Virus record (IMG/VR): IMGVR_UViG_3300042260_000337
Origin: a virus
Taxonomy: Duplodnaviria; Caudoviricetes
Reading direction: 5' to 3' (one strand)
DNA: 64,000 bases
The notes below the pieces were generated by a model. That model was not told the DNA's origin and searched no databases. It saw only the letters and a list, made by a program, of their open reading frames with translations. The position numbers were made by a program, and so were the translations under genes. Within the stretch, counting starts at the first letter, position 1. The number at the start of each line of letters is the position of its first letter. Shown here piece by piece: positions 9,237-63,517 of this stretch.

Positions 9237-9266
9237 CATTGTGGGGGAATATATGTGTATAATACG

Positions 9267-9300
9267 CAAAAAACGGCACTTTTTCTTTGAAAAATGCCGT
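9267..9300 (-). terminator. Rho-independent terminator after the portal and 83-aa genes
   Basis: Minus strand ACGGCA-TTTTT-CAAAG-AAAAA-G-TGCCGT followed by TTTTT. Confidence 0.7.
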
Positions 9301-9343
9301 AGAGATATTTAGATACTAGTCCAAAAAAATAAACTTCGGAGTT

Positions 9344-9595: not shown

Positions 9596-9600
9596 ATAAC

Positions 9601-35788: not shown

Positions 35789-35791
35789 AAT

Positions 35792-41700: not shown

Positions 41701-44700
41701 TGAATATTCTGGTGCGGTTCTTACAATGAACGGTTCCATATTGATAGACTTTGGCATGTCATCTACAAGTTCGTTTAGAGAGTCTACATATCAAAATGTA
41801 GTAGACCAAATAGATTCGGTCGTTGATTTGACTTCATATCTAAATTCAAACGAACAGATAGTTATAACAACAACAAACCCAACAGTTACTCTGTCTGGAA
41901 CTGCACTTACTCATATCGGTATGGATGACGGCGTATACAACGCAGTCGCCAACCCTACTAAAAACAGTATAGTTGAGCAAATCAACAACTTGAACATTCT
42001 AAATCTTCAGGCAAGTGTTACCACTTCTGGTATAGAAATATATAAAAATAATCACCTTCTAACCATCAGTGAAGTAACTACTGGCGCTATGTCAAGACTT
42101 GGATTTACAAGTTCAACGGTTGTAGTTAGGGCGTCCGACCTTATCGCAGAACAGATAAATGCACAGGCGTTTGCAAACGATAGTTCTATAGGATATGCTA
42201 GTGTTGTTGACAGTAGAATCAAGATAACAAGTCCACAAAAATCAATCGCAATTTCCAGTCTAAATGGAAATGCGCTAGATGATATAGGGATTCCTGCGGG
42301 AACATATCTGGCAACTACAACAATATTGTCCTCTGCGTCTGCCTTCAAAGACCAAATAAATTCAGTCGCTACAGACGTTACCGTGTCAATATCGAGTGAT
42401 GGACGAATGATATTTGTTGGAAACAACAACGTAATTTCGTTTGCCGGAACGGAACAAGAAATACTTGACAAGATTGGATTGTATAGAGAATACACCAGTA
42501 TCACAAGTAGTAATGACTTCAAGGTTATGGACTGGAAATCCGTGCGTTACACACCAAATTATAATGGAGAAACATTCGGTGAGTTCTATGACAATCTTGG
42601 ATTGAATGGAATATCATTTATTTGGGCTGATGAATACGATGGCAATGGTTGGGCGGTTTTGGCTCGTAAACCAGATGGAACTCTAACCGTCATGCAGCGT
42701 CAGGCACCACGAGTGAATGTTGAAAACATAAATCGTTTGATCATAACTGATGATCAAACGAATCATCGTATGTATAGTTTGTATGATCCTTTGAATTTGA
42801 AATTCCCAGGGGATGTTGGTGCTAACTTGTCATATGTTTCCTGGCAAGACCCTGCGCAGTATGAGTTTGATGTTACACGAGACAAGTGGACTGACAGTCA
42901 CGTTGGAGAATTTTGGTGGAATACCACAAACGCAAGATATTATCGCTACAATGATTATGGTGATGTCAATGGAAACATTGATGCCAACTTTGCTAGAAAA
43001 TATTGGGGAAAACTAGTTCCTAATTCTGAGATAAAAGTATATCGTTGGACTGTATCAACTACTATACCAGATGACGTAACAAAATTCAACAAAGTAGTAT
43101 ATAATGACCCAGCGACAAATTCAAATGTCGTAAAGTATTACTTCTGGACAGCCGAGTCTATCGGACAAGAGGAAGATGATTTGACGCCATCAGATGTGAA
43201 AATGATGATAGAAAATCGTAAAATGTCTGATAACTTTATTCCTATTGCGAATAACAAAATATTGGTTTCAAATAGTAAAGAAGTCCTAAAGGGACAACGA
43301 GTAAAATTTGAACTTGATTATTACACTGATAAATCAAGAAACGAATCTCATAGTGATTGGCATCTTGTATCTGAAAAAGATTCTACTCCAATCCCAGATG
43401 AATTATGTCAAGAATTTATAGATTCAATTTCTGGGGCAATTATAGAAGATAGCATTTCAAACGTTATCGTCGCAGAAGAAATTGATGAGATAGGAAATGT
43501 CATAATAAGTGGAATTGATTTCTTGAACTATTGTGACCTTACAGATTCAGTCGTTATGATCAATTCAAATTTGGTTCAGCCATCGTTTTTTAGTTACAAT
43601 GGAGACACATTGGAGATAGACTATTCATACGCCGCTATGGTTGGTGATGTAGTGAGAGTTTACAAGCTATCTAGAAACTTCAACAACTGGTTCAAAAATC
43701 TTCCAGAAGCTAGAAGAAATTTTGGATACATAGTAAATGAATATATGAAGCGAAAGGTTATAGGCGGTTTCGCATACAACTGGAAAGAATACGTGTCTGA
43801 TTATGAGAACTCATTAGTTTCTTTGGACTACTGGTCACTCAATTCAAAGTATGACACCATAGATTATTTTGAATATCTGTCAAAAACTAAGTCTTTTGAC
43901 ATGAATGGGTTGTATGAATCTGGAATACAATCCTTCAAAGTATCAACCGATGAGGATGGGTATTACTTCCCAATTGACGGTGTTCTTCGTATGGTTCATA
44001 GAACCAATACTTCGTTGAGAATTTCTCACGAAAATGTAATTACTCCAAAATTGAATACTGAGTATTATGAAAATGCACTATCAGTGCAAACAATTGAGTT
44101 TATGAATATGATGAAGGAATATGCAGAGCCATCATTTATGAAAAAACTATTCTTGGAAATGGTAAAATATATGCTGACTGAAAAGACATATCCTGATTTT
44201 ATATTCAAGACAAGTTACTTTGACTTGATTATGAAAAATAATGGACTGAAGCAAAGTGCAATATACCTAAGAGACTATTATGATGATATGATTGATTACG
44301 TCAACGATACCAAACCATATCATGCAAAAATAAGAAATGTAACCAATCGTTTCTCCACGCAGGAAAGCATGAACAATTCGGTGACTGACATTTCAAACAT
44401 GACAGTTCGTATGAAATTTGGAAATTCTGATTATTATACCATTATAGTTGACGAATCATTTGATGCTGATCCTATCATATACGATATAGATAAAAAGTTC
44501 AATCCTTCTCCCGAACCATTGACGCTAACAGTTTATATCAACGGCGTGAAAATACGAGACCAATATTATTCAATAGAAAATGGACATTTGGTTTTCAACA
44601 CAAATGGCGATATTCTTGATGGCAGCACTTCCGGGGCTATTAGTATTGAAGTCGGAGACAGAATAACCGTATCAAGAACAAATAGTCGTTATGCGTTGAA

Positions 44701-50445: not shown

Positions 50446-51426
50446 ATGGCAAAAATAGTAATCGGTGACTTAGATGTGTTTTATCTAAGCTATGATGAAC
50501 CAAACAAAGAAGAACATTGGGCGAATCTTTTGCAGAAGTTCCCGTTTGCTAAACGAGTGGATGGCGTCAAAGGATTTGACAATGCACATAAAGAATGTGC
50601 AAGGCAAAGTGAAACTGAACGTTTTATTACGATTGATGGCGACAATATTGTCAGCGACGAAAAGTTCTTTGACCTTGAAATTAGTATCCCAGAAAATACA
50701 AACATGGCAAACTCAGTTCTTAGTTGGTCGGCAAAGAATGTAGTAAACGGTCTGGTGTATGGAAATGGTGGAATTAAGTGTTGGCCAGTTCAACTTGTGT
50801 TGGACATGAAAACCCACGAAAACGCTGATAACGAATCAAAGAAGTTAGACTTCTGTTGGGATTTGAATTACATTCAAATGAACAATGTCTACTCACATGT
50901 GTTCAATGCTGGTTCTCCATTTCAGGCGTTCCGTTCAGGTTATCGTGAAGGTGTAAAGATGTCTCTGGATCAAGGACATGTTGTTCCAGCAAAGCAGTTC
51001 AAAAAACGTATATGGCCAAAGAACTATGAGCGTCTTTTGACTTGGTGCAATATAGGAGCAGACGTTGAAAATGGACTATGGGCCATATACGGCGCAAGAT
51101 TGGGATGCTTGGAAACTAATATAACAAAGTCGCTTCCAATTGATGGTATATCAAACTATGAATGGTTTAAGGATTATTTTGACGCTGAAATTCTTCCAGA
51201 ATTTAAAAATGGCGATGAGTATTGTAATAAAACCAAAGTTCACTGGAGCTACGATAAACTGTATGATGCCACACTTGATGTTGGCGACCAATTGATGGAT
51301 TCATTAGCAATGGAACTATGCGACCCGACTCCTGAGATGTCTGCGTTCTTCAAACGAGTTTATGTGAACCCACCACGGGTGGCAAACCCAATAGCCACCG
51401 AAAAACAAACTGGATGGGACAAGTAA
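50446..51426 (+). CDS. Glycosyltransferase-like protein (GT-A)
   Basis: DVFYLSYDEPN, GVKGFDNAHKECA, FITIDGDN (DxD). Confidence 0.6.
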   Translation: MAKIVIGDLDVFYLSYDEPNKEEHWANLLQKFPFAKRVDGVKGFDNAHKECARQSETERFITIDGDNIVSDEKFFDLEISIPENTNMANSVLSWSAKNVVNGLVYGNGGIKCWPVQLVLDMKTHENADNESKKLDFCWDLNYIQMNNVYSHVFNAGSPFQAFRSGYREGVKMSLDQGHVVPAKQFKKRIWPKNYERLLTWCNIGADVENGLWAIYGARLGCLETNITKSLPIDGISNYEWFKDYFDAEILPEFKNGDEYCNKTKVHWSYDKLYDATLDVGDQLMDSLAMELCDPTPEMSAFFKRVYVNPPRVANPIATEKQTGWDK

Positions 51427-53012
51427 TGAGTAAAACTCTAGATGATTTTAACTGGGAACGGCAAAAAGGAAGTAATGACATAATATCGTCACATTCTAAT
51501 GTCGAAAATGTAAAAGTATTGCTTGATAGCAAGGGACCAGGATTTTGCCTAGCAAAATTCAAGCAAGTGACACTTCATTTGGGAACTGGGTTGGTGCATT
51601 CATGCCATCACCCTAGTCCCCATAAGATTGACAAAACCGAGTTAGAAAACAACGTAATGACATTATTCAATACGTCAAGATTGAAACAAGTTCGCAAGCA
51701 AATGCTAAACGGAGAAAGACCTCGCGAATGCGACTATTGTTGGCGCATTGAAGATAACAAAAGCACCAGCGACCGTCATTTCAAGAGTGTTGAGCCATGG
51801 GCGATTGGCGACCATGACAAAATTGCGTCATACACTGGCGACGAGGATATATTTCCCTCATATCTTGAGGTTGATTTTAGTAACGTATGTAACCTACAAT
51901 GCACTTATTGTGGACCAGAGTTCAGTTCAAAATGGGTTGAAGACCTTAAACATAACGGTCCATTGAAAGTTTTAGAGGGAACTCCAAGCGAAAGTTGGGT
52001 TCAGGGCTGGCAAGACTTAGAAACGCTAAACATAAAAAATCGTGATGTCAACCCTTATATTGATGCATTTTGGGAATGGTGGCCATCTGCATATCCACAT
52101 CTAAAACATTACCGAATTACGGGCGGTGAACCTCTGATGAGTAAAGAAACCTTCCGCAGTATGGATTGGTTTATAGAGAACCCAAACCCAAATCTTGAGT
52201 TCAGTATCAATACAAATCTTTCTGTTCCCGATAAATTGTGGGAAAAATTTGTTGAAAAGTTAAAGTTACTGAATGATGGTAAAACTGTTGCAAAGATTAC
52301 GGTTTACACCAGTGTTGAAGGATGGGGTGCAGCCGCTGAGTATGCAAGAACTGGTCTGGATTTTGAACTCTTTAAGCGTAGATTTGAAGAATTGGCTTCT
52401 ATAGGAAACGTCCGTTGTGTGATTATGGCCGCTTTCAATATATTTAGTGTCACTACATTTCAGAAACTACTTGAATGGGTGTATGAGTTAAAATGCAAGC
52501 ATAATACTAATGTTGGAGCAATAGGGATGGAAAAAGAAACTGGGTATGCGTTAGCATCTCCTAGTTTATCAGACCGTGAAACTCACAATCCAACTCTTGC
52601 TCGTTCATACGTAGTGGGGCTTGATATTCCATATTTGAGAAGTCCTGCCATGTTGGATGCACACAATATTTCGCATGAGTTGGTTGAAAAGTATTTGATA
52701 CCATCACTAGACTACATGGCAAGCCATGCTGCATGGGATTCTTGGAGTAATCATCAAGGATTTGAACGTCACGAAATTGAAAAACTTCGTAGAATTGTTG
52801 TTCATCGTATGTATCATAACAGAAAGAACGACCCAACCGACAGCCATTTTGAGACTCTTAAACAGCGGGCAATGTTTTACGACTTTGTAAATGAAAACGA
52901 CAAGCGCAGAGGGTCAAACTTTTTGAACTCGTTTCCTGAAATGACTGAGTTCTACCAGTTGTGTGAAGCCGCGAAAAAAGAGTTTATCTCGCTTCTTGGA
53001 AATAAACAGTAA
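51426..53012 (+). CDS. Radical SAM enzyme 1 with N-terminal SPASM/twitch-like Cys domain
   Basis: CNLQCTYC (CxxxCxxC), ITGGEPL, INTN. N-terminal FCLAK...HSCHH...ECDYCW. Start set at MSKTL. Confidence 0.9.
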   Translation: MSKTLDDFNWERQKGSNDIISSHSNVENVKVLLDSKGPGFCLAKFKQVTLHLGTGLVHSCHHPSPHKIDKTELENNVMTLFNTSRLKQVRKQMLNGERPRECDYCWRIEDNKSTSDRHFKSVEPWAIGDHDKIASYTGDEDIFPSYLEVDFSNVCNLQCTYCGPEFSSKWVEDLKHNGPLKVLEGTPSESWVQGWQDLETLNIKNRDVNPYIDAFWEWWPSAYPHLKHYRITGGEPLMSKETFRSMDWFIENPNPNLEFSINTNLSVPDKLWEKFVEKLKLLNDGKTVAKITVYTSVEGWGAAAEYARTGLDFELFKRRFEELASIGNVRCVIMAAFNIFSVTTFQKLLEWVYELKCKHNTNVGAIGMEKETGYALASPSLSDRETHNPTLARSYVVGLDIPYLRSPAMLDAHNISHELVEKYLIPSLDYMASHAAWDSWSNHQGFERHEIEKLRRIVVHRMYHNRKNDPTDSHFETLKQRAMFYDFVNENDKRRGSNFLNSFPEMTEFYQLCEAAKKEFISLLGNKQ

Positions 53013-53016
53013 ATAA

Positions 53017-54432
53017 ATGCAACAACAGCTATCTGATTACAACTGGAATGTAAACTTAGAACAGCGACTTCAAAACATGAAGTCGCTGTTGAACTCTACT
53101 GGAACTGGATTTTGTTTGGCAAAATTCAAACAAGTTACTATGCATCTTTCTCTTGGCAAGGTGCATTCTTGCCACCATCCATATGCACACAAGATTGACC
53201 CAGTGGACGTTCAACAAAATCCAAGTTTACTGTTTAATACGCCAGTGCTGAAGACAGCTAGAAAAGAAATGTTGTCTGGTGAGCGCCCGTCAGAGTGTAA
53301 CTACTGTTGGAGAGTAGAAGATTCTGACGATGAAAACTTTTCTGATAGACATCTAAAAAGTTCCGATACCTGGGCAATTGACGATCACGATACCATTGCA
53401 TCTTACACTGGTGATGAAGATATATACCCATCGTATTTGGAAGTTAGTTTTAATAACGCATGTAATTTGAAATGTCTGTATTGCGGACCAGAGTTCAGTT
53501 CAAAATGGGCAGAAGAAATAAAGAGCAATGGGCAAATACCCTTACTATCAGGCACAAAAGACTTTGAAATACATAATTATTTTAGGCCAAATGCTATTAT
53601 AAAGAACAGAGAATATAATCCATACACTGAAGCATTTTGGAAATGGTGGCCAGAAGTATATAAGCATCTTCAGGTTTTTAGAATTACTGGCGGCGAACCT
53701 TTAATGAGCAAAGACACGTTTAAATCACTGGACTGGTTTATAGAAAACCCAAATAAAAATTTAGAATTATGTATCAATAGCAATTTCAGCGTCGAAGATT
53801 CGTTATGGAAAAAGTTTATTGACAAAATAATCACGTTGCAAAATTCAGGAAACGTTAAAACCATAACCATATATACAAGTGTTGAGGCATGGGCTGAACG
53901 TGCAGAATATATAAGAACTGGTCTTGATTTTAATTTGCTATTGAATAGAATTGATGAGTGTTTATCCAAGGGAGTTCGCGTGGATATTATGGCAGCGTTC
54001 AACATACTGTCATTATCATCATATAAGCAATTGTTACAATGGGTTTTAAGCAGAAAAAAAATATATAATAAAGATAAAACACTAATTGCAATAGATACTG
54101 CATACGTTCGTGGCCCCGACCATTTGGATGCAATATTTTTAACAAGTGACCTGTTAAATTACTTAAAAGATATTACAGATTATGTCAAACAAAATATTTC
54201 AAATGATGGATATCACATGTATGAATATGAGAAAGTATCCAGAATATATTCAACTGTTTTGAATAGAAAAATATCAACGCAATCTAAAATTAAATGCAGA
54301 GCAAAGTTTTTTGATTACATTAATGAACTTGATACTCGGTATGGCGTAAAATTTCTAAATTGCTTTCCCGAATATTCTAAATATTACAGAGTTGCAAAGA
54401 AAGCCAGAAAGAGATTTAAGGATATAAGATGA
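53017..54432 (+). CDS. Radical SAM enzyme 2, paralog of 1
   Basis: CNLKCLYC, ITGGEPL, N-terminal FCLAK...HSCHH...ECNYCW. Confidence 0.9.
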   Translation: MQQQLSDYNWNVNLEQRLQNMKSLLNSTGTGFCLAKFKQVTMHLSLGKVHSCHHPYAHKIDPVDVQQNPSLLFNTPVLKTARKEMLSGERPSECNYCWRVEDSDDENFSDRHLKSSDTWAIDDHDTIASYTGDEDIYPSYLEVSFNNACNLKCLYCGPEFSSKWAEEIKSNGQIPLLSGTKDFEIHNYFRPNAIIKNREYNPYTEAFWKWWPEVYKHLQVFRITGGEPLMSKDTFKSLDWFIENPNKNLELCINSNFSVEDSLWKKFIDKIITLQNSGNVKTITIYTSVEAWAERAEYIRTGLDFNLLLNRIDECLSKGVRVDIMAAFNILSLSSYKQLLQWVLSRKKIYNKDKTLIAIDTAYVRGPDHLDAIFLTSDLLNYLKDITDYVKQNISNDGYHMYEYEKVSRIYSTVLNRKISTQSKIKCRAKFFDYINELDTRYGVKFLNCFPEYSKYYRVAKKARKRFKDIR

Positions 54433-55235
54433 AAAAAATTGCAGTTATAGGGTGTAGTCACAGTTCGTATGACCAAGTTTTTCATGGACCTAGTAGCGAT
54501 GGAAAAGACTGGGTTCATCATGTGTCAACTATTGCCCCAGAGTTTGAATTTCATAGTTTTGCGTGTGAAGGGCATGGTCCATTATATTATGACTACACTC
54601 TCAAAGAGATCGCAACAAAATACGAGCCTAAGTTTTTTGACACCTTGATAGTTCAATACACGGTCGGGGGGAGATGGATATTTCCTCTTAACGCTGGAAA
54701 TCTATGGAACCCAAACCAAAATACCTATACCGATTTTGATTCGACCAATATCACTGACAACTACAAATTCTATAAGCTATTTCCGCAGCGTGTCTCATTG
54801 TCCAGAAACCGAGCGACAGCGTGGCATGTAAATAGAAAAGATTACTTGTATCGCAGAAGGATACGACAAATAGAAGTATCGTTGGATGAAATATACCAGC
54901 CCGATGGTATTGTTACAACATACGAATCAAATTTCTCAAGGACATTGGTTCCTTTATATGGTCAGTATTTTAACAATATTTTTTATTTCGATTTTAGCAA
55001 TACAATGTTTAACGCAACTACTACGGACAAAGATTTTCAATATAGAAACAATATTGGATGGGATAAACCATTTAAGAACTATGTAACAGACAAATATGGA
55101 TTAGAATACGTGGCGGAATTTTTGTTTGATAGCTCGTTTCACTGCTCAAAACTTGGAAATGAAGTGTTGGTGAATGAATATCTAAATGAGAGTCTTCTTG
55201 GGGATTATCTAGGAACAAGAGGTAAACTAGTTTGA
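54429..55235 (+). CDS. SGNH/GDSL-like hydrolase or acyltransferase (putative)
   Basis: IAVIGCSHS (block I GxS) and C-terminal DSSFH (DxxH) followed by a helix. Confidence 0.5.
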   Translation: MKKIAVIGCSHSSYDQVFHGPSSDGKDWVHHVSTIAPEFEFHSFACEGHGPLYYDYTLKEIATKYEPKFFDTLIVQYTVGGRWIFPLNAGNLWNPNQNTYTDFDSTNITDNYKFYKLFPQRVSLSRNRATAWHVNRKDYLYRRRIRQIEVSLDEIYQPDGIVTTYESNFSRTLVPLYGQYFNNIFYFDFSNTMFNATTTDKDFQYRNNIGWDKPFKNYVTDKYGLEYVAEFLFDSSFHCSKLGNEVLVNEYLNESLLGDYLGTRGKLV

Positions 55236-56497
55236 TTAATTTACATGAAAATAAACACATATGTGCATTGGCATGGAACCATCTTCACGTTACGATAGAA
55301 GGGCGTGTTGCGCCCTGTTGCGTTTATACATCTTATACGTCAGAATCAGAGAAGCTATATAACTTGAAAACACATACTTTGTCTGAGGCTATAAACAGCC
55401 CTGGAATGAAAGAGATGCGAAAGGCAATGATTGAGGGAAAGCCCCATGGATTGTGTTCCGTATGCGATTACAATTTAGAGAATGGCATTAGGTCACCAAG
55501 GGATAAATTCAATGAACGATATATGGAACAAACTATAAATCTGATAGAAAAAACAAATCCAGATGGTTCTCTCGACATTGAAAATTTTAATCCAATATAC
55601 GTAGATTTTCGATTCAGCAATCTGTGTAATTTGAGATGCCGTATGTGTTCTATCCAAGCAAGCAGCGCATGGTACAACGAAACAGTAGAATACAACAAAC
55701 TAACAAATGGTGGACCCGTATACTATGATAAGAAGTTTGAAAACAATAATTCTAGCGAACAAGTAATACACTTACTTGACAGTGTTGAACACATGTATTG
55801 GGCTGGCGGCGAACCGTTATTACTTGATGAGCATTATTCTATACTGAAGCATTTGATAGATTCGGGTAGGGCTGCGCAAGTAAGTCTGGTTTACAACACA
55901 AACATGACGATTTCAAAATACAAAGGAACTCCTGTAGTAGAATACTGGAAGCATTTCAAACACGTATTCGTAGTTGGTAGTATAGATGGCATTGAAGCAG
56001 TGTCAGATTACATACGAACTGGATCGTCATGGGAAAAAACAAAGGAAGTTTTCGAATCATTTAAACGGTCTGGATATGAGAACATCCAAGTTCATCCGTG
56101 TTTAACTGTAAGCATGTTGAACATATTATACATTCCAGAACTTGTCAAGTGGCTGTATCAAAATAAATGGTTTGATGACGATATGGCAGAAATCGCCATA
56201 AATTTTGTTGATTACCCACCCGAAATGTCAATAAAATATATTCCAAGAGAACATAGAGAAACACTGAGTAACATGTTTTTAGAACTATACGATTGGTTAC
56301 GAGAGCGTGGCCATCCTCGGTCAGTTGATCCTTTGAATACGATACTGAAATATGTTAATGGGTTTAATTGCTCCGATGATGAAATAGAAAAAAATGTTTT
56401 GTCTCTTATAAGAAGATTGGATATATATGACATAACCGGTAAGCTGAATTGGAGAAACAGCTTACCAGAATTAGAAAAGATATTAAGTGGCTATTGA
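55232..56497 (+). CDS. Radical SAM enzyme 3 with N-terminal auxiliary Cys domain
   Basis: CNLRCRMC, WAGGEPL, YNTN. N-terminal ICALAW...PCC...LCSVC. Confidence 0.9.
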   Translation: MINLHENKHICALAWNHLHVTIEGRVAPCCVYTSYTSESEKLYNLKTHTLSEAINSPGMKEMRKAMIEGKPHGLCSVCDYNLENGIRSPRDKFNERYMEQTINLIEKTNPDGSLDIENFNPIYVDFRFSNLCNLRCRMCSIQASSAWYNETVEYNKLTNGGPVYYDKKFENNNSSEQVIHLLDSVEHMYWAGGEPLLLDEHYSILKHLIDSGRAAQVSLVYNTNMTISKYKGTPVVEYWKHFKHVFVVGSIDGIEAVSDYIRTGSSWEKTKEVFESFKRSGYENIQVHPCLTVSMLNILYIPELVKWLYQNKWFDDDMAEIAINFVDYPPEMSIKYIPREHRETLSNMFLELYDWLRERGHPRSVDPLNTILKYVNGFNCSDDEIEKNVLSLIRRLDIYDITGKLNWRNSLPELEKILSGY

Positions 56498-56920
56498 CTT
56501 TATCATGGTATAGTTTATGTTGTGCTTGAACATCCATACCATTAAGAATTCCTCCATTTTCCATTCTTCATTCTTGACCGCATGTAATGGGGTATTAACA
56601 AGATTGTTTACTGAATGAACCCATCTTGAAAATGTTGTCATTTTGATAAAGGTCATAAATGAATCTGCGTAAAATGTATTATAATTGTCAATAAAGCATA
56701 CCGTGTTTTTTTCTGCTCCATATATATAATCGGTGCGATTTTTTTCTGAAATATTATCTAATGAAAAACTTCTTGGTGAGCATATGACTCCCTTTACTTG
56801 AAGTTTTGTTTTTAGGGTTTCGCTGCTGATATTTTTCATTGCAAGTTGCCATGCTTTTTTATAATGGTTCGAATCTATTCTTGATTCTGGAATTATCCCT
56901 GTTATATATTGTTCAACCAT
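56483..56920 (-). CDS. Hypothetical protein
   Basis: 145-aa ORF overlapping the upstream GT-like gene. Confidence 0.6.
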   Translation of the reverse strand: MVEQYITGIIPESRIDSNHYKKAWQLAMKNISSETLKTKLQVKGVICSPRSFSLDNISEKNRTDYIYGAEKNTVCFIDNYNTFYADSFMTFIKMTTFSRWVHSVNNLVNTPLHAVKNEEWKMEEFLMVWMFKHNINYTMIKSIAT

Positions 56921-57884
56921 TGTTCCAATAGCTTCCTATTTTTATAAAATCGTCGTTGTCGTTTGGGTTAAGTTCTTTTATTTCTTTATTTGGTCTTGCA
57001 ACAATCATATGTATTTCGTCATGAATATCATTGATAAGTCTTTCTTCAATATTATTCATAGTTCCTCCGTCTTTCCATCTTTCTGAAATGCCTGGTGTTC
57101 TTATAATTGGAACTGAGATCGGACTTCCAAGTCTTCCGAATAGAACATGGAAGTTCATAAAGTCCCTAAATGCTTCATACTTTGGAAATGAGGTGTTTCC
57201 GTATATAGAAGTTTTTTTATGCATATAATCAATCATCTCATAGCATATTCTATCTGCCGCCGCCCCTGTAAATACAATCAACAAGTCATTTATCATATTA
57301 CAAAACATCGTATAGCGCCCAGGGTCGTTTCCTACGTATGCGTGGTTGGATGCGGGACTTATAATAGAATCTGGATCATTTGGCCAAACTTTTAAGTCAT
57401 CTGACGATTTTATTTTTTCTATTAGTTGTGGTATATAATCCATTGGCCTAAAGATTACATCATATCTTAGCATTATCACAGCGTCATAAAATATACCAGT
57501 CTCGGCCTCATATTTCTGTTTTAACAAAAGGCTATCAATCACCCCCGCTGGGGACAATACGCCATGATGATTGAACTCTGTTCTTTCTTTGTTTTCATTT
57601 TGTGTGATTAACTCAAACGGGTCAGTTACAAAATGAATACTTTTTGGATTCAATACATCTGTTATGGTTTTTCTAATATGGTCAACCTCATCATCATTTA
57701 TTGTTTCAACGCCCATCTCCATCAAGCGTCTTGATGCGTGAAATGATAGGCTGTTTTTTGTTGAACAAAATATGTCTATGTTTTCTACATTTATATTGTC
57801 GATTATAGATTTTAAATGTGGCAGACAAACGTCTCCTGAACGATATTGGCCATAAAAACATATAGCCAAGTTTACTATATTCAT
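56913..57884 (-). CDS. Putative glycosyltransferase (AICFYGQYR family)
   Basis: NLAICFYGQYR, DIFCSTK, YDAVIMLRYD (RxD), NDLL. Confidence 0.55.
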   Translation of the reverse strand: MNIVNLAICFYGQYRSGDVCLPHLKSIIDNINVENIDIFCSTKNSLSFHASRRLMEMGVETINDDEVDHIRKTITDVLNPKSIHFVTDPFELITQNENKERTEFNHHGVLSPAGVIDSLLLKQKYEAETGIFYDAVIMLRYDVIFRPMDYIPQLIEKIKSSDDLKVWPNDPDSIISPASNHAYVGNDPGRYTMFCNMINDLLIVFTGAAADRICYEMIDYMHKKTSIYGNTSFPKYEAFRDFMNFHVLFGRLGSPISVPIIRTPGISERWKDGGTMNNIEERLINDIHDEIHMIVARPNKEIKELNPNDNDDFIKIGSYWNNG

Positions 57885-57902
57885 ATGATAAACTCCTTCG
57901 CT

Positions 57903-58880
57903 TTATTTATCTTGGGTTGTAATCCATATACTCATTATTTTGTCAAAGTCATCTTCGTTTGATGGGTTCATATTATTGATGTCTGGATGTGGCCTGACTA
58001 GAGCAAACATTGGCTGAGTTTTTAAGTTGCAATTCGCTCTTTCATCAAAGTTATGTATGTCACCACTTGCTTCATTTTTATTTTTTGGATACTTGGTGAT
58101 ATGCGGGGCATCTATATGATGGAGCGAAATTCTATTTGCTAGATGTGTTAGCATACTGTGGCAATCATACATATGTTTGTATTTACTATACTTATGATTT
58201 TCATTGGTATATACACCAACAACAGTATCAACTAAGTTGACAAGTTCGTAACACAACCTGTCTGCGCCCGAACCAGTAAATGCAATAAATAAATCTGCAA
58301 TAGGATTTGGAAGAATGCTATATGGATGTGTTACATTCATTAAAAATGCGTCATTTATGATTCCCGCTATTATCGAATCTGGGTCGTTGGGCCATATCTT
58401 CAAATCATCTTCTTTTTGCATCTGGTATATGAATTTTTGTATGTAATCAATCGGTCTTATCATTATATCATATCTCATCAAAATTACGGCATCATAAAAC
58501 ATTTCATTCTCTGCTTCATATTGCTGTTTTAACAAAATAGAATCGATGATGCCAGTGAATACATAAAAATCTTTGCGAACATCTGAGTTCATTCTTTCTA
58601 TATCGTCCACTAGGACATTTATTCTTTTAGGAGAGAGTAATTTTTTTAAGGTGTTGACTGTTTTTTCAATTTCGCTGGCATCAACTGAATATACTGAGTT
58701 TATATCAATTTCAGAAATTGACCCATCTGCGGTATGATATGAAACTGTATCTTTTACTGAACAAAATATGTCAACGTTGACATTTTTTATTTGAGTGAGC
58801 ACATCTTTCAAATGCGGAACACATATGTCGCCCGTTCTGTATTGACCATAAAAACAAATTGCAAGATTAGTTATTTTCAT
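57903..58880 (-). CDS. Putative glycosyltransferase, paralog of 56913..57884
   Basis: NLAICFYGQYR, YDAVILMRYD, IWPNDPDSII. Start set at MKITN (58880). Confidence 0.55.
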   Translation of the reverse strand: MKITNLAICFYGQYRTGDICVPHLKDVLTQIKNVNVDIFCSVKDTVSYHTADGSISEIDINSVYSVDASEIEKTVNTLKKLLSPKRINVLVDDIERMNSDVRKDFYVFTGIIDSILLKQQYEAENEMFYDAVILMRYDIMIRPIDYIQKFIYQMQKEDDLKIWPNDPDSIIAGIINDAFLMNVTHPYSILPNPIADLFIAFTGSGADRLCYELVNLVDTVVGVYTNENHKYSKYKHMYDCHSMLTHLANRISLHHIDAPHITKYPKNKNEASGDIHNFDERANCNLKTQPMFALVRPHPDINNMNPSNEDDFDKIMSIWITTQDK

Positions 58881-58885
58881 ATTCA

Positions 58886-58913
58886 TATTTATGTCAAAAT
58901 AAATGCATAAATA
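58886..58913. promoter_or_regulatory. Back-to-back late promoters CATAAATA
   Basis: Minus strand 58886-58893 (5 nt before ATG 58880) and plus strand 58906-58913 (upstream of 58935). Confidence 0.55.
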
Positions 58914-58934
58914 TAATAATAGTAGGATTTAATT

Positions 58935-60236
58935 TTGACACAACCAATAGATTATAAGAATAACAAAAGAATATGTTCTCTTGCGTGGACACACCTTCAT
59001 GTGACCACTACAGGAAGGGTTGCGCCTTGTGGGCAGTATGTTAATTCAAAATCCCCAGACATAAAACTTGCGAACATACAGGATAGTTCATTGGATGAAT
59101 GTATCAATAGTTCTGGGATGAAATACATTCGTTCCATGATGCTACAGAATAAGCCGAATGAGATGTGTTCATTGTGCGAATACAAAATGCAACAGGGTAT
59201 TGAATCTACTAAAGACAGGTTCAATGCATTATATTTGGAAAAAACTAAATTTGCCATTGAAGCCACACGAGCCGATGGCCATATTGATATAGATGACTAC
59301 AAACCTGTGTTCTTTGATGTTAGATTTGGAAATCTTTGTAATCTTCGATGCCGAATGTGCAACTGGGAAGCAAGTAGTGCATGGTTTGATGAAACAAAGG
59401 AAATAGGAAAACAAAACCTAGTGACCTTTGATACTATAAGATTGGATGATTCAAGCCCAAAATTTGTAGCAAATGGAGCGTATGATAAGATAGAACATCT
59501 TTTGCAGTATGCAGAAAAAATGTATTTTGCTGGAGGTGAACCACTTCTCATGGAAGAACACTACCGAGCACTTCAATATCTAATTGATTCGGGAAAATCC
59601 AAAGATGTCGAATTGCATTACAGCACCAACTATACTATTTCAAAATACAAAGGCAAACTGGTTGCAGATTATTGGAAAGAGTTCAAACAAGTAATAGTGG
59701 CTGGTAGCGTGGATGGCATCGAAGAAGTTTCTGACTACATACGAACAGGATCGTCGTGGGAAAAGATGAAACAGGTTGTATCTGAAATGAAACCGCAGGG
59801 CGACGAATACAATAACATAACCCTGTCTCCATGTTTTTCTGTAAGTATAATGAATATATTTCATAGCCCAAGATTTTTTAAATGGTGTTTTGAAAATGGA
59901 TGGTTTGAAAAAAATCTATCCGTAATCGCCATTAATTATGTAGATTATCCTCCAGATTTGAGTATAAAATATTTGCCTTATGCAGCAAAGAAAACTGTAG
60001 AAGAAGAATATGTTGATTTATCAAGATGGCTAATTGAAAATGGACACCCATTGAGTGCTAAAGTTGTAAACGAAATTATAACGTATATGAATGGGGGAGA
60101 TATCACACAAGCTGATATCGATTATAGAATGAGTCAAGCGGTAAACAGAATGGATGTGTATGACAAAACATCGCATCTCAATTGGAAAGAAACACTACCA
60201 GAGTTGAAACATGCTCTTTTAGCATATATAAAATAG
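58935..60236 (+). CDS. Radical SAM enzyme 4, paralog of 3
   Basis: CNLRCRMC, FAGGEPL, YSTN. N-terminal ICSLAW...PC...MCSLC. Confidence 0.9.
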   Translation: MTQPIDYKNNKRICSLAWTHLHVTTTGRVAPCGQYVNSKSPDIKLANIQDSSLDECINSSGMKYIRSMMLQNKPNEMCSLCEYKMQQGIESTKDRFNALYLEKTKFAIEATRADGHIDIDDYKPVFFDVRFGNLCNLRCRMCNWEASSAWFDETKEIGKQNLVTFDTIRLDDSSPKFVANGAYDKIEHLLQYAEKMYFAGGEPLLMEEHYRALQYLIDSGKSKDVELHYSTNYTISKYKGKLVADYWKEFKQVIVAGSVDGIEEVSDYIRTGSSWEKMKQVVSEMKPQGDEYNNITLSPCFSVSIMNIFHSPRFFKWCFENGWFEKNLSVIAINYVDYPPDLSIKYLPYAAKKTVEEEYVDLSRWLIENGHPLSAKVVNEIITYMNGGDITQADIDYRMSQAVNRMDVYDKTSHLNWKETLPELKHALLAYIK

Positions 60237-60239: not shown

Positions 60240-60268
60240 TTGAAGTTATTATATAAATTTGGTATAAT
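60240..60268 (+). promoter_or_regulatory. sigma70 promoter for the RuBisCO-like operon
   Basis: TTGAAG-17 nt-TATAAT with extended TG. SD GAGGT before ATG 60299. Confidence 0.75.
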
Positions 60269-60298
60269 GTAATAAAATATTCAAAAAAGAGGTATCCA

Positions 60299-61339
60299 AT
60301 GAATACATATAGAGTCACATATCGTGTTGAGAGTAGCAATATAGAAAAAGCTGCTGACGCCATAGTATTGGGGCAAAGTGTCGGTAATCCAGACATTCGT
60401 TCTTCATATGAAGAAGCAGACGGAATACAACAAAGCAAAGCGGAATTGATTTCCATCAACGGCAACGAGGTAGTGATTGACTTCAAGTGGAGAAACTTGC
60501 ACTCCACGACTGATATTGGTCAAATGCTTTGCACCATAAATGGCGGGCAGAGCGATATCGCACTGTTGGAATCATGCAGAATCGTTGGTCTTGAACTGAA
60601 CCAACCGTTTGTAAAGAAGTCTCCGCACAAGACATTAGTCAAAAGAAATCGTCCAGCAATTGGTAGTATTGTGAAACCAAAAGCTGGACTTACCTCCGAA
60701 CAATTGCGAGACATCACAACACAAATGTGTGATGGCGGAATTGACTTTATTAAAGAAGATGAAATTTTGGCTGACGCTGCGTATCTTCCACTCAGACAGA
60801 GATTGGATATTGTTCAGCCAATTATGGAAAAATATCCTGAAACCGTGTATACATATTGCACAAATGGAAATCCAGAACATCTAGTTTCTCAGCTTGATAT
60901 GGTGAAAGAGTGCAATGGCGATGGAGTTCATATTAATTTCTGGAGCGGCCTTGGGGCTTATTCTGATAGCAACCAACGAGGGTTCTTCACACATTTCCAA
61001 CGAAGTGGAATTAGAGTATTGACTGATCCTAGAAATCCGTGGGGAATTGATTGGCCTGTGTTGGTCAAAATGGCAATTTATCAAGGCATTGATAGTATAC
61101 ATGTTGGTATGATTGGCGGGTATTATCCTGGCGACCATCAAGAGGTTAGAGATGCAGTCAAGCTATGTCAAGAACACAATGTGTGGGCTGCGTTAAGCTG
61201 TGGAATGACACCAGACATAGCGAAGTCAATTCGTGATGAGATTGGAGACCATTGGCTTGCAAATGTTGGCGGATGGTTGCACACTGGGGACAGCATCGAA
61301 CAGAAAATAACTGAATTGCGGATGGCATTTGATGCTTAA
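60299..61339 (+). CDS. RuBisCO-like protein (form IV-like, non-carboxylating)
   Basis: GSIVKPKAG, GGIDFIKEDE, THFQRSG, IHVG, LSCG and VGG align by eye to the RuBisCO large-subunit active-site segments. Confidence 0.9.
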   Translation: MNTYRVTYRVESSNIEKAADAIVLGQSVGNPDIRSSYEEADGIQQSKAELISINGNEVVIDFKWRNLHSTTDIGQMLCTINGGQSDIALLESCRIVGLELNQPFVKKSPHKTLVKRNRPAIGSIVKPKAGLTSEQLRDITTQMCDGGIDFIKEDEILADAAYLPLRQRLDIVQPIMEKYPETVYTYCTNGNPEHLVSQLDMVKECNGDGVHINFWSGLGAYSDSNQRGFFTHFQRSGIRVLTDPRNPWGIDWPVLVKMAIYQGIDSIHVGMIGGYYPGDHQEVRDAVKLCQEHNVWAALSCGMTPDIAKSIRDEIGDHWLANVGGWLHTGDSIEQKITELRMAFDA

Positions 61340-62030
61340 TGTATTGCAGTTGTGTGCTGGTAAAGGGTCAAGGTTTGCAGAATACTCGCAAACCCCTAAA
61401 CCATTTTTAGATGTTCACGGCGACCCAATGTTTGTCGCTGCAATCAAATCTTTGAATTTGGGAAATGATGTTCGCCATCATTTCCTATTTCAAGAACGTG
61501 CGCTAACACAATACAAACCTTCGCAATATGTTGATGGATTGTTTTATGGCATAGACCATTACACTGATGGCGCAGCTACAAGCGCCGCATATGTTATAAG
61601 AAACAATAAGTTTCGACACGAACCATGGTTGATAGTTGACTGTGACTTTATAGTATCATACGATTCTACAACATTCAAATCCGTATACAATCACACGAAT
61701 TGTATTTTCGTTCAAAACCGTTCATTTGATATAAAAAGTAGCTATAGCTGCGTTGACTCAAACATGAATATATTAGGTGTGGCAGAAAAGCAACCTATCA
61801 GTAGATATCGCAACAGCGGTCAATACCATTGGGTTTCTGGCGATGTTTTTATCCAGTCGTATGATTTTTATACAGATAATGGATTGGTGTCTCTTGGTGA
61901 ATACTATACTGCTCCACTATATAACTATGCAATACAGAATGGAATACCAACCATGGCGATTGAGGTTGATAGTTTTACTCCGATAGGAACGCCTATGGAT
62001 TACGAAAGGTATATACATGAGATTCGCTAA
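61332..62030 (+). CDS. Sugar/polyol-phosphate nucleotidyltransferase (GT-A fold)
   Basis: LCAGKGSRF...PKP, GAATS, VDCD, VAEK, GEYY. Confidence 0.85.
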   Translation: MLNVLQLCAGKGSRFAEYSQTPKPFLDVHGDPMFVAAIKSLNLGNDVRHHFLFQERALTQYKPSQYVDGLFYGIDHYTDGAATSAAYVIRNNKFRHEPWLIVDCDFIVSYDSTTFKSVYNHTNCIFVQNRSFDIKSSYSCVDSNMNILGVAEKQPISRYRNSGQYHWVSGDVFIQSYDFYTDNGLVSLGEYYTAPLYNYAIQNGIPTMAIEVDSFTPIGTPMDYERYIHEIR

Positions 62031-62340
62031 ATTATCTGATTTCAAAGGTGGGTGGGTGATTGGAGACTTTGAACCCACTATGCTAAAAACAGACCAGTTT
62101 GAGGTAGCAGTTTTGCACCACACGGCTGGAAAACAAATAGAAAAACACTATCAAGTTATCGCTACTGAATACAATGTCATGATTAGTGGCAAAATGAATG
62201 TAAATGGAACTATCGTCACGTCAGGTGACGTATTTACATATGAACCAATGGAAATTACAGAAGTTGAAGTTCTGGAAGATACAGTGGTCATATGTGTCAA
62301 AACCCCAAGTATTCCAAACGATAAAGTGGTAATTGACTGA
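62017..62340 (+). CDS. Cupin-domain protein (possible sugar epimerase/isomerase)
   Basis: 107 aa. GWVIGDFEP, KHYQ...EYNVMISGKM, cupin beta pattern. Confidence 0.75.
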   Translation: MRFAKLSDFKGGWVIGDFEPTMLKTDQFEVAVLHHTAGKQIEKHYQVIATEYNVMISGKMNVNGTIVTSGDVFTYEPMEITEVEVLEDTVVICVKTPSIPNDKVVID

Positions 62341-62780
62341 TGCCAATTTTTATCGCACATCGTGGAAATACGAATGGTATAGAATTATCGTTTGAGAATA
62401 GAATAGACTATCTTGGTCACGCACTATCTATTGGGTATGGAATAGAATGTGATGTATGCTACTGGAAAGACAAATATTATTTTGGGCATGATGCGCCGCA
62501 AGAAGAGATAGATACTAATATCCTGTTAGCAGATAATTCATTTTGTCATGCGAAAGATATGCAATCTTTGCTGTATCTGAACTCAATTGGTGCTAATTGT
62601 TTTTGGCATGAAAGCGATAAAATGACATACACTAGTAAAGGAAATATATGGTGCTATCCAGGTGTATTTCCAATTTCAAAAAACGCAGTATGGCTTGATT
62701 TGTTGGGAATACCATTGCCTGAAAATATACATCATACAATATATGGTATTTGTGGAGATACATTCATAAATACCATATGA
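62340..62780 (+). CDS. Glycerophosphodiester phosphodiesterase/PI-PLC-like protein, truncated fold
   Basis: IAHRGN, IECDV, GHD, HAK. Confidence 0.7.
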   Translation: MPIFIAHRGNTNGIELSFENRIDYLGHALSIGYGIECDVCYWKDKYYFGHDAPQEEIDTNILLADNSFCHAKDMQSLLYLNSIGANCFWHESDKMTYTSKGNIWCYPGVFPISKNAVWLDLLGIPLPENIHHTIYGICGDTFINTI

Positions 62781-63517
62781 ATGTAAATATTATAAGTCAA
62801 TTCATTTCTGGAAGAAGCGGTGCAAAAGTTTATTTGGCCGAAAAAAATGGTATTGTCGGTGTCTATAAAACAAACGTAAAAGACCCATATGGTGTTTACG
62901 AATTATCAAAAAAACTTCCGTTTCGGACGCCAGAGATATATGATATTTCCGATGATTCTATATTCATGGAATACATAAACGGCAGACCATTAAAAGATGT
63001 TCTAAGAGACAATGATCCTATAAAAATAGAAATAGTATCTGACTTTATATTATCTTATGTAGATTACGCATTAAATTCTTCTCTGGGAATGTATGATTTC
63101 TCAGAAATAATAAACAAAAAAATAGAACAGGTTTCTGAATTTGTTTCAACGTCATATCTTTCAAACATAAAAACCGTCTATCCAACATCAATAACCCACG
63201 GTGATTTCACGTTTGATAATATGATATATTGTGAGAACGAGGTTTGTCTGATTGACTTGTCGCCAACTCCATTTACAAGTGTATATTTTGATATGAACAA
63301 GTTGAGACAAGATTTGACTGGATATTGGTTTGTCCGACAAGAGCCTTCTTATGCTCCTTGGGTGTCGGCATGTAACAAAATATATAGCATCATAGATACT
63401 AAGCACCCTAGCATGTTTGACGATGGACTTTACAATCTGATGATTTCAAGAATACTCCCATATTGCAAGAATAATGATTTTGATTTTAATTACGTGTTGA
63501 ATATGTTAATCGGTTAA
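62777..63517 (+). CDS. APH/choline-kinase-like phosphotransferase
   Basis: SGRSGAKV, MEYING, THGDFTFDN (Brenner motif), LID. Start set at ATG 62777. Confidence 0.8.
   Translation: MNVNIISQFISGRSGAKVYLAEKNGIVGVYKTNVKDPYGVYELSKKLPFRTPEIYDISDDSIFMEYINGRPLKDVLRDNDPIKIEIVSDFILSYVDYALNSSLGMYDFSEIINKKIEQVSEFVSTSYLSNIKTVYPTSITHGDFTFDNMIYCENEVCLIDLSPTPFTSVYFDMNKLRQDLTGYWFVRQEPSYAPWVSACNKIYSIIDTKHPSMFDDGLYNLMISRILPYCKNNDFDFNYVLNMLIG

What the first reader, a model, noticed from the sequence alone, without database searches (positions are those of the whole stretch)
60299..61339. Phage RuBisCO-like protein with a rewired active site
Seen, by manual alignment in spinach numbering: K175, K177, K201, D203, E204 (KPK; KEDE), R295, H327, S379 and G403/G404 appear retained. 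E60 is Q (LGQSVG), N123 is G (INGGQ), H294 is Q (HFQR) and K334 is Y (GGYY). Known: K334, H294, N123 and E60 are needed for RuBP carboxylation, and form IV RLPs use the carbamylated Lys-Mg site for enolase, isomerase or decarboxylase chemistry. Inference: a non-carboxylating RLP acting on a phosphorylated sugar, with a substitution pattern I do not recognise from MtnW-type enzymes. It may be a new reaction.
Basis: partly seen in the sequence, partly recalled or inferred. Interest (0 to 1): 0.72.

Follow-up and report, generated by a model that had tools for sequence, protein, structure and literature searches.

The report
Phage RuBisCO-like enzyme in sugar-activation cassette
A jumbo phage carries a shortened, non-carbon-fixing relative of RuBisCO that is almost always next to, or fused with, a sugar-phosphate nucleotidyltransferase, so it most likely prepares an unusual sugar phosphate for glycan synthesis, a role not yet described for this enzyme superfamily.

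Summary
The ORF at 60299-61339 (+, 346 aa) is real. It is a confident RuBisCO large-subunit homologue: Pfam E 3e-28, AlphaFold pLDDT 91, TM 0.84 to form III RuBisCO. The window is a PA5oct-like jumbo phage.

The Lys-Mg site and both phosphate sites are kept. K334, H294, N123 and E60 are replaced by Y, Q, G and G.

This pattern is not peculiar to this phage. It is invariant in 266 members of a large clade of short RLPs found in phages, SAR11, Legionella, CPR bacteria and DPANN archaea. The clade matches the "IV-like" phage RLPs that Jaffe et al. reported in 2019 without a function.

New here:
- The RLP sits next to one nucleotidyltransferase (NT) family in 121 of 129 loci.
- It is fused to that NT in both domain orders, and once also to the cupin.
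- It lies among glycosyltransferases or surface-glycan genes.
- In cultured cyanophages the same NT is fused instead to DHBP synthase or a HAD enzyme.

Best reading: a non-carboxylating enolising enzyme that remodels a ketose phosphate, which the NT then activates as a glycosyl donor. The substrate is unknown.

This scan noted the same five-gene cassette earlier.

The parts
60299..61339 (+). Short RuBisCO-like protein (346 aa), the finding itself
   Evidence: PF00016 E 3e-28. AF2 model pLDDT 91.4. Foldseek TMq 0.84 to form III RuBisCO 2d69 and 0.81 to RLP 3nwr. Residue map.
60240..60293 (+). Promoter-like site (TTGAAG, 17 nt, TG-TATAAT, at 60240-60268) and AAGAGG ribosome-binding site in the 62-bp gap before the RLP
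   Evidence: This is the best-scoring site of the scan, 10 of 12 with an extended -10; sequence read. The total number of such sites in the region is not above the shuffled expectation, so this is a lead only.
61332..62030 (+). Sugar-phosphate nucleotidyltransferase (NT), overlapping the RLP stop by 8 nt
   Evidence: Weak NTP_transf_3 and GlmU/MurU hits. Family profile A5 matches PDB 4evw, an NDP-sugar pyrophosphorylase, at E 1e-36, then GMPP, GlmU and RmlA. Found beside the RLP in 121 of 129 loci and fused to it.
62017..62340 (+). Small metal-type cupin (107 aa)
   Evidence: Family members hit Cupin_2 and Cupin_7. The profile weakly matches a 113-aa mannose-6-phosphate isomerase and quercetinase cupins. 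Present in 44 of 129 loci. Fused as RLP-NT-cupin in P0270 and P0273.
62340..62780 (+). Truncated GDPD-like phosphodiesterase (146 aa)
   Evidence: HRG...ExD...GHD motifs in alignment A3. The profile matches glycerophosphodiester phosphodiesterases 7e0v and 3i10 at E 3e-4 to 9e-4, over the N-terminal ~55 residues only. Present in 63 of 129 loci.
62777..63517 (+). Protein-kinase-like (RIO/Bud32-like) kinase, last gene of the co-directional run
   Evidence: RIO1 E 3e-5 and Bud32 E 1e-10. Gene call. Found in none of the other 129 loci, so it is specific to this lineage.
56913..58886 (-). Two paralogous DUF7796/WavE-like putative GT-A glycosyltransferases (323 and 327 aa)
   Evidence: The family occurs in about 80 of 129 loci, usually one gene away from the RLP. 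A member hits DUF7796 at E 7e-12. The Atlas links the family to DUF7796 and WavE. The AF2 model (pLDDT 64) gives only weak GT-A matches, TM 0.3-0.39.
51414..60236 (+). Four paralogous radical SAM genes with an N-terminal twitch domain (51414-53012, 53017-54432, 55232-56497, 58935-60236) flanking the cassette
   Evidence: NF033640 N_Twi_rSAM at E 1e-89 to 1e-106. They co-occur with the RLP in only about 15 of 129 loci, so they are accessory rather than core.

Best explanation
The gene encodes an active, non-carboxylating member of the RuBisCO superfamily. It belongs to a distinct clade of shortened RLPs.

Inferred mechanism. The enzyme keeps the first half-reaction of RuBisCO. Carbamylated Lys152, with Mg2+ held by Asp154 and Glu155, abstracts a proton next to the carbonyl of a ketose phosphate and stabilises the enediolate. 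The residues that add CO2, hydrate and cleave are gone (K334, H294, N123, E60). The enediolate is therefore probably reprotonated elsewhere, giving an isomer or epimer, or possibly an elimination or decarboxylation product.

The adjacent nucleotidyltransferase then joins the product's phosphate to an NMP, making an NDP-linked donor. The neighbouring GT-A-like transferases, or LicD in Legionella, put that donor on a glycan.

Shown: the fold, the conserved site, the loss of the carboxylation residues, and the tight genetic and physical (fusion) coupling to the NT within glycan gene clusters.

Inferred: the order RLP then NT, the reaction type, a pentulose-phosphate-like substrate, and the acceptor (host surface, virion or DNA).
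For: 1. Enzyme, not relic. Invariant residues sit at the C-terminal ends of all eight barrel strands of the model: K126/K128, K152-D154-E155, C187/N189, H211/N213, H232/Q234, H268, S300-C301-G302, G324-G325.
2. Carboxylation residues are replaced in 264-265 of 266 members.
3. An NT of one family lies next to the RLP in 76 of 80 viral and 45 of 49 cellular loci, with a median gap of 3 bp.
4. Natural fusions exist in three architectures: NT-RLP in 8 clusters, RLP-NT in P0131, and RLP-NT-cupin in P0270 and P0273.
5. The viral loci form islands that also carry GT25, Nucleotid_trans, DUF7796-like and methyltransferase genes.
6. The cellular loci carry epimerase/dehydratase, GT2, WavE, DegT, LicD and CTP_transf_3 genes.
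7. In cyanophages S-SKS1 and S-CAM9 the same NT family (194 and 308 bits against a family median of 278) sits with the same DUF7796-like genes. There it is fused to DHBP synthase (E 5e-65) or to HAD_2 instead. Both partners act on sugar phosphates before nucleotidylation, which supports the order RLP then NT.
8. Atlas structure neighbours of the NT include viral clusters fused to RpiB, DHBP synthase, HAD_2 and RuBisCO_large. This is a lead towards pentose or pentulose phosphates.
9. The five genes from RLP to kinase overlap or abut.
Against: - No substrate or product is identified, and nothing here tests catalysis.
- Both RuBisCO phosphate sites are kept (G302, G324, G325; R/K235, H268, S300). 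That fits a bisphosphate, or a phosphate plus another anion, better than a simple pentulose 5-phosphate.
- RmlA/GlmU-type NTs usually take anomeric 1-phosphates, whereas RuBisCO-family substrates carry primary phosphates.
- The RLP could act after the NT, on an NDP-ketosugar.
- The GT-A assignment of the DUF7796-like proteins rests on a mediocre model (pLDDT 64, TM below 0.4).
- The RpiB-NT fusion is an Atlas cluster label that I did not verify.
- Gene linkage and fusion show a shared pathway, not a reaction.
Confidence: 0.6

Rival explanations
1. The RLP acts after the nucleotidyltransferase. It isomerises or epimerises an NDP-linked ketosugar, as cupin ketoisomerases and RmlC-type epimerases do in deoxysugar pathways. 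The retained distal anion site would bind the diphosphate.
For: Fusions occur in both domain orders, so they say nothing about reaction order. The distal anion site R/K235-H268-S300 is conserved. Small cupins that accompany the RLP are typical of NDP-sugar tailoring.
Against: All characterised RuBisCO-family substrates are free sugar or acid-sugar phosphates (established knowledge). The enzymes that replace the RLP beside the same NT family, DHBP synthase and HAD_2, act on free sugar phosphates.
Confidence: 0.17
2. It is a methionine or 5'-deoxyadenosine salvage enzyme, an MtnW-like or R. rubrum-like RLP. It would recycle the by-products of the five phage radical SAM enzymes, with the kinase and cupin playing MtnK-like and MtnD-like roles.
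For: Four radical SAM genes flank the RLP and a fifth lies just beyond the window. A kinase with a protein-kinase-like fold and a cupin are in the same operon.
Against: Radical SAM genes accompany the RLP in about 15 of 129 loci and the kinase in none. MtnW models score 45.6 and 32.4 bits against cut-offs of 409 and 513.6. No MtnA, MtnB or MtnX-like neighbour turned up among the conserved clusters. The universal partner is an NT, which has no role in salvage.
Confidence: 0.04
3. It is a true, if unusual, CO2-fixing or RuBP-consuming RuBisCO used as a phage auxiliary metabolic gene.
For: The best sequence and structure matches are form II/III and form III RuBisCOs. The carbamate-Lys/Mg site and both phosphate sites are retained.
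Against: K334, H294, N123 and E60 are replaced in essentially all members. The stretch between K334 and S379, which holds loop 6 and helix 6, is 20 residues shorter. NCBIfam RuBisCO models score 52-83 bits against cut-offs of 438-497. No PRK, R15P isomerase or AMP phosphorylase neighbours were seen. Hosts such as Legionella and SAR11 lack the Calvin cycle (established knowledge).
Confidence: 0.03
4. It is a catalytically dead scaffold or regulatory subunit of the nucleotidyltransferase.
For: It is obligately paired with, and sometimes fused to, the NT. The protein is strongly trimmed compared with canonical RLPs.
Against: Mg ligands, the carbamate Lys and residues on all eight strand ends are invariant across phages, bacteria and archaea. 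That is the pattern of a working active site.
Confidence: 0.05

Closest known systems
Phage / Beckwithbacteria 'IV-like' RuBisCO-like proteins of Jaffe et al. 2019 (Mol Biol Evol 36:435, PMC6389311)
   Same: They are encoded by phages, including myoviruses and a ~200-kb phage, and are highly divergent from other RLPs. They keep only some key residues and group with Beckwithbacteria. My family also contains a Beckwithbacteria MAG member (L092) and forms one clade apart from other forms.
   Different: That paper left the function open and did not report the link to a nucleotidyltransferase, the fusions, or the spread into SAR11, Legionella and DPANN. I could not compare with their sequences directly.
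MtnW/YkrW 2,3-diketo-5-methylthiopentyl-1-phosphate enolase (form IV-YkrW)
   Same: It is a non-carboxylating RLP that uses the carbamylated Lys-Mg site to enolise a keto-phosphate.
   Different: The equivalog models score about a tenth of their cut-offs. There is no methionine-salvage context. N123 is Gly here, whereas MtnW has a catalytic Lys at that position (from memory of Imker et al. 2007, not tested).
Rhodospirillum rubrum RLP (5-methylthioribulose-1-phosphate 1,3-isomerase, IV-DeepYkr)
   Same: It is the best mechanistic analogue: enolisation followed by reprotonation moves the carbonyl and yields pentulose 5-phosphate analogues.
   Different: It belongs to a different clade and a different pathway (SAM/isoprenoid), and has no NT partner. 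The relationship was not tested here because no reference sequence was at hand.
OiaX/OiaC RLPs of D-apiose catabolism (Carter et al. 2018) and the NonPhoto RLP 3nwr
   Same: They are RLPs acting on acid-sugar phosphates. 3nwr is among the best sequence and structure matches.
   Different: The OiaX model scores 74 bits against a cut-off of 700. OiaX-like representatives fall on the other side of the tree. Their context is catabolic, not biosynthetic.
Form III RuBisCO (P. horikoshii 2d69/2cwx, T. kodakarensis 3a12)
   Same: They are the nearest solved folds (TMq 0.82-0.85, 18-21% identity) and share the Mg site and phosphate sites.
   Different: Four carboxylation residues are lost, and the protein has about 100 fewer residues.
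CDP-ribitol (TarJ/TarI) and ADP-heptose (GmhA/HldE/GmhB) pathways
   Same: They share the pathway logic: a sugar-phosphate-remodelling enzyme followed by a nucleotidyltransferase, then transfer to a surface glycan. LicD-family transferases use CDP-ribitol-type donors.
   Different: The remodelling enzyme is a reductase or an isomerase/kinase there, not a RuBisCO-fold enzyme. This is an analogy only.

Membership tests
RuBisCO large-subunit superfamily | Sequence match to PF00016 above the curated cut-off | tested here: met
   99.4 bits against 30.1, E 3e-28
RuBisCO large-subunit superfamily | N-terminal alpha/beta domain plus (beta/alpha)8 barrel superposable on solved members | tested here: met
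   AF2 pLDDT 91.4. Foldseek E 1e-24, TMq 0.84 to 2d69. The top 50 PDB matches listed are all RuBisCO or RLP chains.
RuBisCO large-subunit superfamily | Carbamylatable Lys (K201) with Asp/Glu Mg ligands (D203, E204) | tested here: met
   K152, D154 and E155 align and are invariant in 266 of 266 members. Carbamylation itself cannot be tested here.
Carboxylating RuBisCO (forms I-III) | Loop-6 Lys K334 | tested here: not met
   Y275 in 264 of 266 members
Carboxylating RuBisCO (forms I-III) | H294, N123 and E60 | tested here: not met
   Q234, G83 and G25
Carboxylating RuBisCO (forms I-III) | NCBIfam form I, II or III models above their cut-offs | tested here: not met
   82.8 against 438, 51.9 against 489, and 70.6 against 497
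MtnW / YkrW DK-MTP-1-P enolase | Equivalog model score | tested here: not met
   45.6 against 409 and 32.4 against 513.6
MtnW / YkrW DK-MTP-1-P enolase | Methionine-salvage gene neighbourhood (mtnA, mtnB, mtnK, mtnX, mtnD) | tested here: not met
   None appear among the conserved neighbour clusters of 129 loci. Only representatives of the larger clusters were annotated.
OiaX 3-oxo-isoapionate-4-phosphate decarboxylase | Equivalog model score and clade placement | tested here: not met
   74.3 against 700. OiaX-like representatives lie outside the family clade.
Phage 'IV-like' RLP clade (Jaffe et al. 2019) | Phage-borne, divergent from all named forms, grouping with Beckwithbacteria sequences | tested here: met
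   385 relatives in IMG/VR. A Beckwithbacteria member exists. The family forms one clade with SH-aLRT 99. E-values drop from <=1e-27 within the family to ~1e-16 for the next proteins.
Phage 'IV-like' RLP clade (Jaffe et al. 2019) | Direct sequence identity or phylogenetic grouping with the published sequences | not testable with these tools
   Their sequences are not at hand. The description was read.

The most novel reading that the evidence does not exclude
This clade is the first RuBisCO-superfamily enzyme dedicated to biosynthesis of a nucleotide-activated glycosyl (or phospho-sugar) donor. It would catalyse a reaction not yet known in the superfamily on a pentulose-type (bis)phosphate, and its product would be a previously undescribed NDP-sugar. 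Marine and freshwater phages, SAR11, Legionella, CPR bacteria and DPANN archaea would use that donor to decorate surface glycans, virions or DNA.
Probability: 0.4. Interest if true: 0.8.

Novelty: new variant of a known kind. Interest (0 to 1): 0.63.

Why it matters
RuBisCO-like proteins are a textbook case of one active site recruited for new chemistry. Only a handful of reactions are known so far: enolase, 1,3-isomerase, decarboxylase and transcarboxylase/hydrolase. All of them are in salvage or catabolism.

The function of the large phage-borne clade has been open since 2019. The near-obligate pairing with one nucleotidyltransferase family, and the natural fusions to it, turn that question into a simple two-enzyme assay. 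They also point to an unexpected anabolic role in glycan synthesis.

The family is common in abundant ocean phages and in SAR11. An unknown activated sugar made this way could therefore matter for phage-host recognition and marine cell-surface diversity.

Tried and rejected
- A single-sequence scan of IMG/VR found nothing. The alignment-based scan was needed.
- tblastn of the RLP against 50,697 deposited phage genomes found no match. Foldseek against BFVD found only generic TIM barrels, TM <= 0.44. No cultured or UniProt virus in those sets carries this RLP.
- No whole genome is held for the window.
Physical binding and expression were therefore not examined.
- Tabita et al. 2007, with its table of RLP clade residues, is not held. 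I could not check whether this clade is their 'IV-GOS'.
- Literature searches linking RLPs with nucleotidyl- or cytidylyltransferases, phage genomes, glycan synthesis, or the cyanophage DHBP synthase fusion returned nothing relevant.
- The genome search reports control genomes but does not return their loci. MtnW and R. rubrum RLP reference sequences were therefore not in the tree. Outgroup clades were labelled only through NCBIfam.
- Methionine or 5'-dA salvage was my first idea (note 1). I dropped it after the co-occurrence counts.
- The Azospirillum locus L096 was mis-called by my simple ORF finder in GC-rich DNA and was left out of the counts.

Full report
OBSERVATION

The window is phage DNA. 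It encodes a T4-type major head protein, a portal, an SbcC-like nuclease and a DNA ligase. The head protein is 70% identical to those of PA5oct-like jumbo phages. The same phage is seen on contigs of up to 246 kb.

The ORF at 60299-61339 (+) gives a 346-aa protein. It matches Pfam RuBisCO_large at 99.4 bits, E 3e-28.

An AlphaFold2 model built on 40 relatives has a mean pLDDT of 91.4. It superposes on form III RuBisCO with a query-normalised TM of 0.84, and on the RLP 3nwr with TM 0.81. The top 50 PDB matches listed are all RuBisCO or RLP chains.

RESIDUE MAP

Retained:
- K175/K177 = K126/K128
- K201/D203/E204 = K152/D154/E155
- R295 = R235
- H327 = H268
- S379/G381 = S300/G302
- G403/G404 = G324/G325

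Replaced:
- H294 -> Q234
- K334 -> Y275
- N123 -> G83

The distances K175-K201 (26 residues) and S379-G403 (24 residues) are kept exactly, which supports the register.

One correction is needed. E60 aligns with G25, and Q26 falls on S61. E60 is absent either way.

- T65/W66 -> N30/P31, H298 -> I238, G380 -> C301.
- The K334-to-S379 stretch is 20 residues shorter.
- About 49 N-terminal and 50 C-terminal residues are missing.

THE FAMILY

The pattern is not an oddity of this phage.
- The word-indexed search returned 1771 relatives, and the 120 best listed are all 231-410 aa, mostly 330-400.
- An exhaustive search of 1.8 billion cluster representatives found 23 clusters at E <= 1e-30. E-values are <= 1e-27 within the family and about 1e-16 for the next proteins, ordinary RuBisCOs and RLPs.
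- IMG/VR holds 385 relatives.
- Species-representative genomes hold 50 relatives. These include a complete Pelagibacter genome, several SAR11 single-cell genomes, three Legionella species, Nonomuraea, Turneriella, Beckwithbacteria and other CPR bacteria, and many DPANN archaea.

In a maximum-likelihood tree the family is one clade (SH-aLRT 99). It stands apart from representatives that NCBIfam labels as form III-like or OiaX-like.

Across 266 members the following are identical in 258-266 sequences:
- the retained residues K126, K128, K152, D154, E155, H268, S300, G302, G324 and G325;
- the replacements G25, Q26, N30, P31, G83, Q234, Y275 and C301;
- the family-specific residues D86, H211 and N213.

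R295 is R in 140 members and K in 124.

In the model these invariant residues sit at the C-terminal ends of all eight barrel strands and on the two N-domain loops that close the site in RuBisCO dimers. This is the signature of a working but different active site.

NCBIfam equivalogs for forms I, II and III, MtnW and OiaX all score far below their cut-offs.

WHAT IS ALREADY KNOWN

Jaffe et al. (Mol Biol Evol 2019, PMC6389311) reported about 80 RLP-related sequences on phage contigs. They described them as highly divergent, with residues unlike known form IV enzymes, grouping with Beckwithbacteria, and of unknown function. My family fits that description, so the existence of phage RLPs is not new. 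I found no later paper that assigns a function.

CONTEXT

I compared 80 viral loci and 49 cellular loci. How often each neighbour accompanies the RLP:

| Neighbour family | Loci (of 129) | Notes |
|---|---|---|
| ~240-aa nucleotidyltransferase (NT) | 121 (76/80 viral, 45/49 cellular) | median gap 3 bp |
| DUF7796/WavE-like, ~245 aa | about 80 | two copies in the window at 56913-58886, minus strand |
| Truncated GDPD-like, 146 aa | 63 | |
| Cupin, 107 aa | 44 | |
| N-twitch radical SAM | about 15 | |
| Kinase | 0 | window lineage only |

The NT family profile matches the unassigned V. cholerae NDP-sugar pyrophosphorylase 4evw at E 1e-36. It then matches mannose-1-P guanylyltransferases, GlmU and RmlA.

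Natural fusions exist in three architectures:
- NT-RLP, in eight 90%-identity clusters;
- RLP-NT, in P0131;
- RLP-NT-cupin, in P0270 and P0273.

Fusions in both orders imply independent events, so this is strong evidence for a shared pathway.

The typical viral island reads: methyltransferase, RLP, NT, DUF7796-like, GT25, GT25, Nucleotid_trans.

Cellular neighbours include NAD-dependent epimerase/dehydratase, GT2, WavE, DegT aminotransferase and methyltransferases. LicD is the neighbour in Legionella, and a CMP-sugar-type cytidylyltransferase in Pelagibacter. These are surface-glycan loci.

The DUF7796-like model is mediocre (pLDDT 64) and gives only weak GT-A matches. The Atlas ties the family to DUF7796 and WavE.

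A MODULE SWAP

Cultured cyanophages lack the RLP but have the same NT family. The scores are 308 bits in S-CAM9 and 194 bits in S-SKS1, against a family median of 278. The NT sits next to several DUF7796-like genes in both.

In those phages the NT is fused to a different enzyme:
- to a HAD_2 phosphatase/mutase domain in S-CAM9;
- to a bona fide DHBP synthase (RibB, E 5e-65) in S-SKS1.

The closest long relative of the window's NT (46% identity) is also a HAD_2 fusion.

Atlas structure neighbours of the NT include large viral clusters fused to HAD_2, DHBP synthase, RuBisCO_large and RpiB. The RpiB fusion is unverified.

The partners I checked all act on free sugar phosphates. RibB and RpiB both handle ribulose 5-phosphate. 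This supports the RLP as the step that supplies the NT's substrate, and it hints at pentulose-phosphate chemistry.

THE WINDOW'S CASSETTE

A promoter-like site (TTGAAG, 17 nt, TG-TATAAT) and an AAGAGG ribosome-binding site precede the RLP. The RLP, NT, cupin, GDPD-like and kinase genes overlap or abut, which suggests one operon.

Beyond the window the same phage carries a second NT fused to a HAD phosphatase, a fifth radical SAM gene and an aminotransferase. The region is therefore a larger small-molecule or glycan biosynthetic island.

MECHANISM (INFERRED)

The residues for the first RuBisCO half-reaction are kept: the carbamate on K201, the Mg ligands, and K175. Those for CO2 addition, hydration and C-C cleavage are replaced (K334 with E60, N123, H294).

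The most economical reading is enolisation of a 2-keto-3-hydroxy sugar phosphate followed by reprotonation. That gives an isomerase or epimerase, like the R. rubrum RLP or the xylulose-bisphosphate misfire of RuBisCO. Elimination or decarboxylation remains possible.

Both phosphate sites are retained, which suggests a second anionic group on the substrate.

Rivals considered:
- action after the NT, on an NDP-ketosugar (0.17);
- an inactive scaffold of the NT (0.05);
- methionine or 5'-deoxyadenosine salvage (0.04);
- true carboxylation (0.03).

VERDICT

The gene is a member of an already noticed but uncharacterised RLP clade. What is new is the consistent genetic and physical coupling to a nucleotidyltransferase within glycan-synthesis islands.

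This gives the clade a testable function: supply of a remodelled sugar phosphate for an NDP-linked donor. Confidence is 0.6 for that pathway role and much lower for any specific substrate.

Earlier notes of this scan had read the same five-gene cassette as a nucleotide-sugar pathway. I tested that reading independently with the co-occurrence counts, the fusions and the profile matches.

Noticed in passing
window 51414-60236 (+), and L136:17440-18345: Four tandem paralogues of the N-terminal-twitch radical SAM family (NF033640) lie in the window, and a fifth radical SAM/SPASM gene lies just beyond its end next to a class I/II aminotransferase. Five radical SAM enzymes in one phage island is unusual, and their substrate is unknown.
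   Followed up: partly
window 31409-45196 (+): Two very large adjacent ORFs of 1459 and 3134 aa lie directly upstream of the biosynthetic island. They may be fibre or structural proteins. I did not annotate them.
   Followed up: no
L140:5001-6428 (Synechococcus phage S-SKS1) and L141:4341-5726 (S-CAM9): Cultured cyanophages encode the same NT family fused to a genuine DHBP synthase (RibB) or to a HAD_2 domain, surrounded by DUF7796-like genes. An NT-RibB fusion implies a nucleotide-activated four-carbon ketol, which I have not seen described.
   Followed up: partly
L071 (IMG/VR GVMAG-M-3300023174-129), 8413-11035: A contig labelled as a giant-virus MAG carries the RLP together with an NT-cupin fusion, a GDPD-like gene and a second, 512-aa NT fusion. 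The cassette may therefore reach beyond tailed phages.
   Followed up: no
window 62340-62780 (+): The GDPD-like protein is only 146 aa, about half a TIM barrel, yet keeps the HRG / ExD / GHD catalytic motifs. It is conserved in 63 loci. How a half-barrel works is unexplained.
   Followed up: partly
P0001 residues C78, C93, C187, C301: Four cysteines are invariant or nearly so across the RLP family. C301 replaces G380 next to the P1 phosphate loop, and C187 sits at the end of strand 3.
   Followed up: no
L137:15522-16553 (same phage, ~5 kb beyond the window end): A second nucleotidyltransferase (NTP_transf_3) is fused to a HAD-type phosphatase domain. The island may therefore make more than one activated compound.
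   Followed up: no
L081 (Sphingobacteriales MAG) and L082 (Balneola MAG): These 'bacterial' contigs carry the same gene order as the marine phage loci (c3, RLP, cupin/NT, DUF7796-like, GT25, Nucleotid_trans). They may be phage contigs binned into MAGs, or prophages.
   Followed up: no
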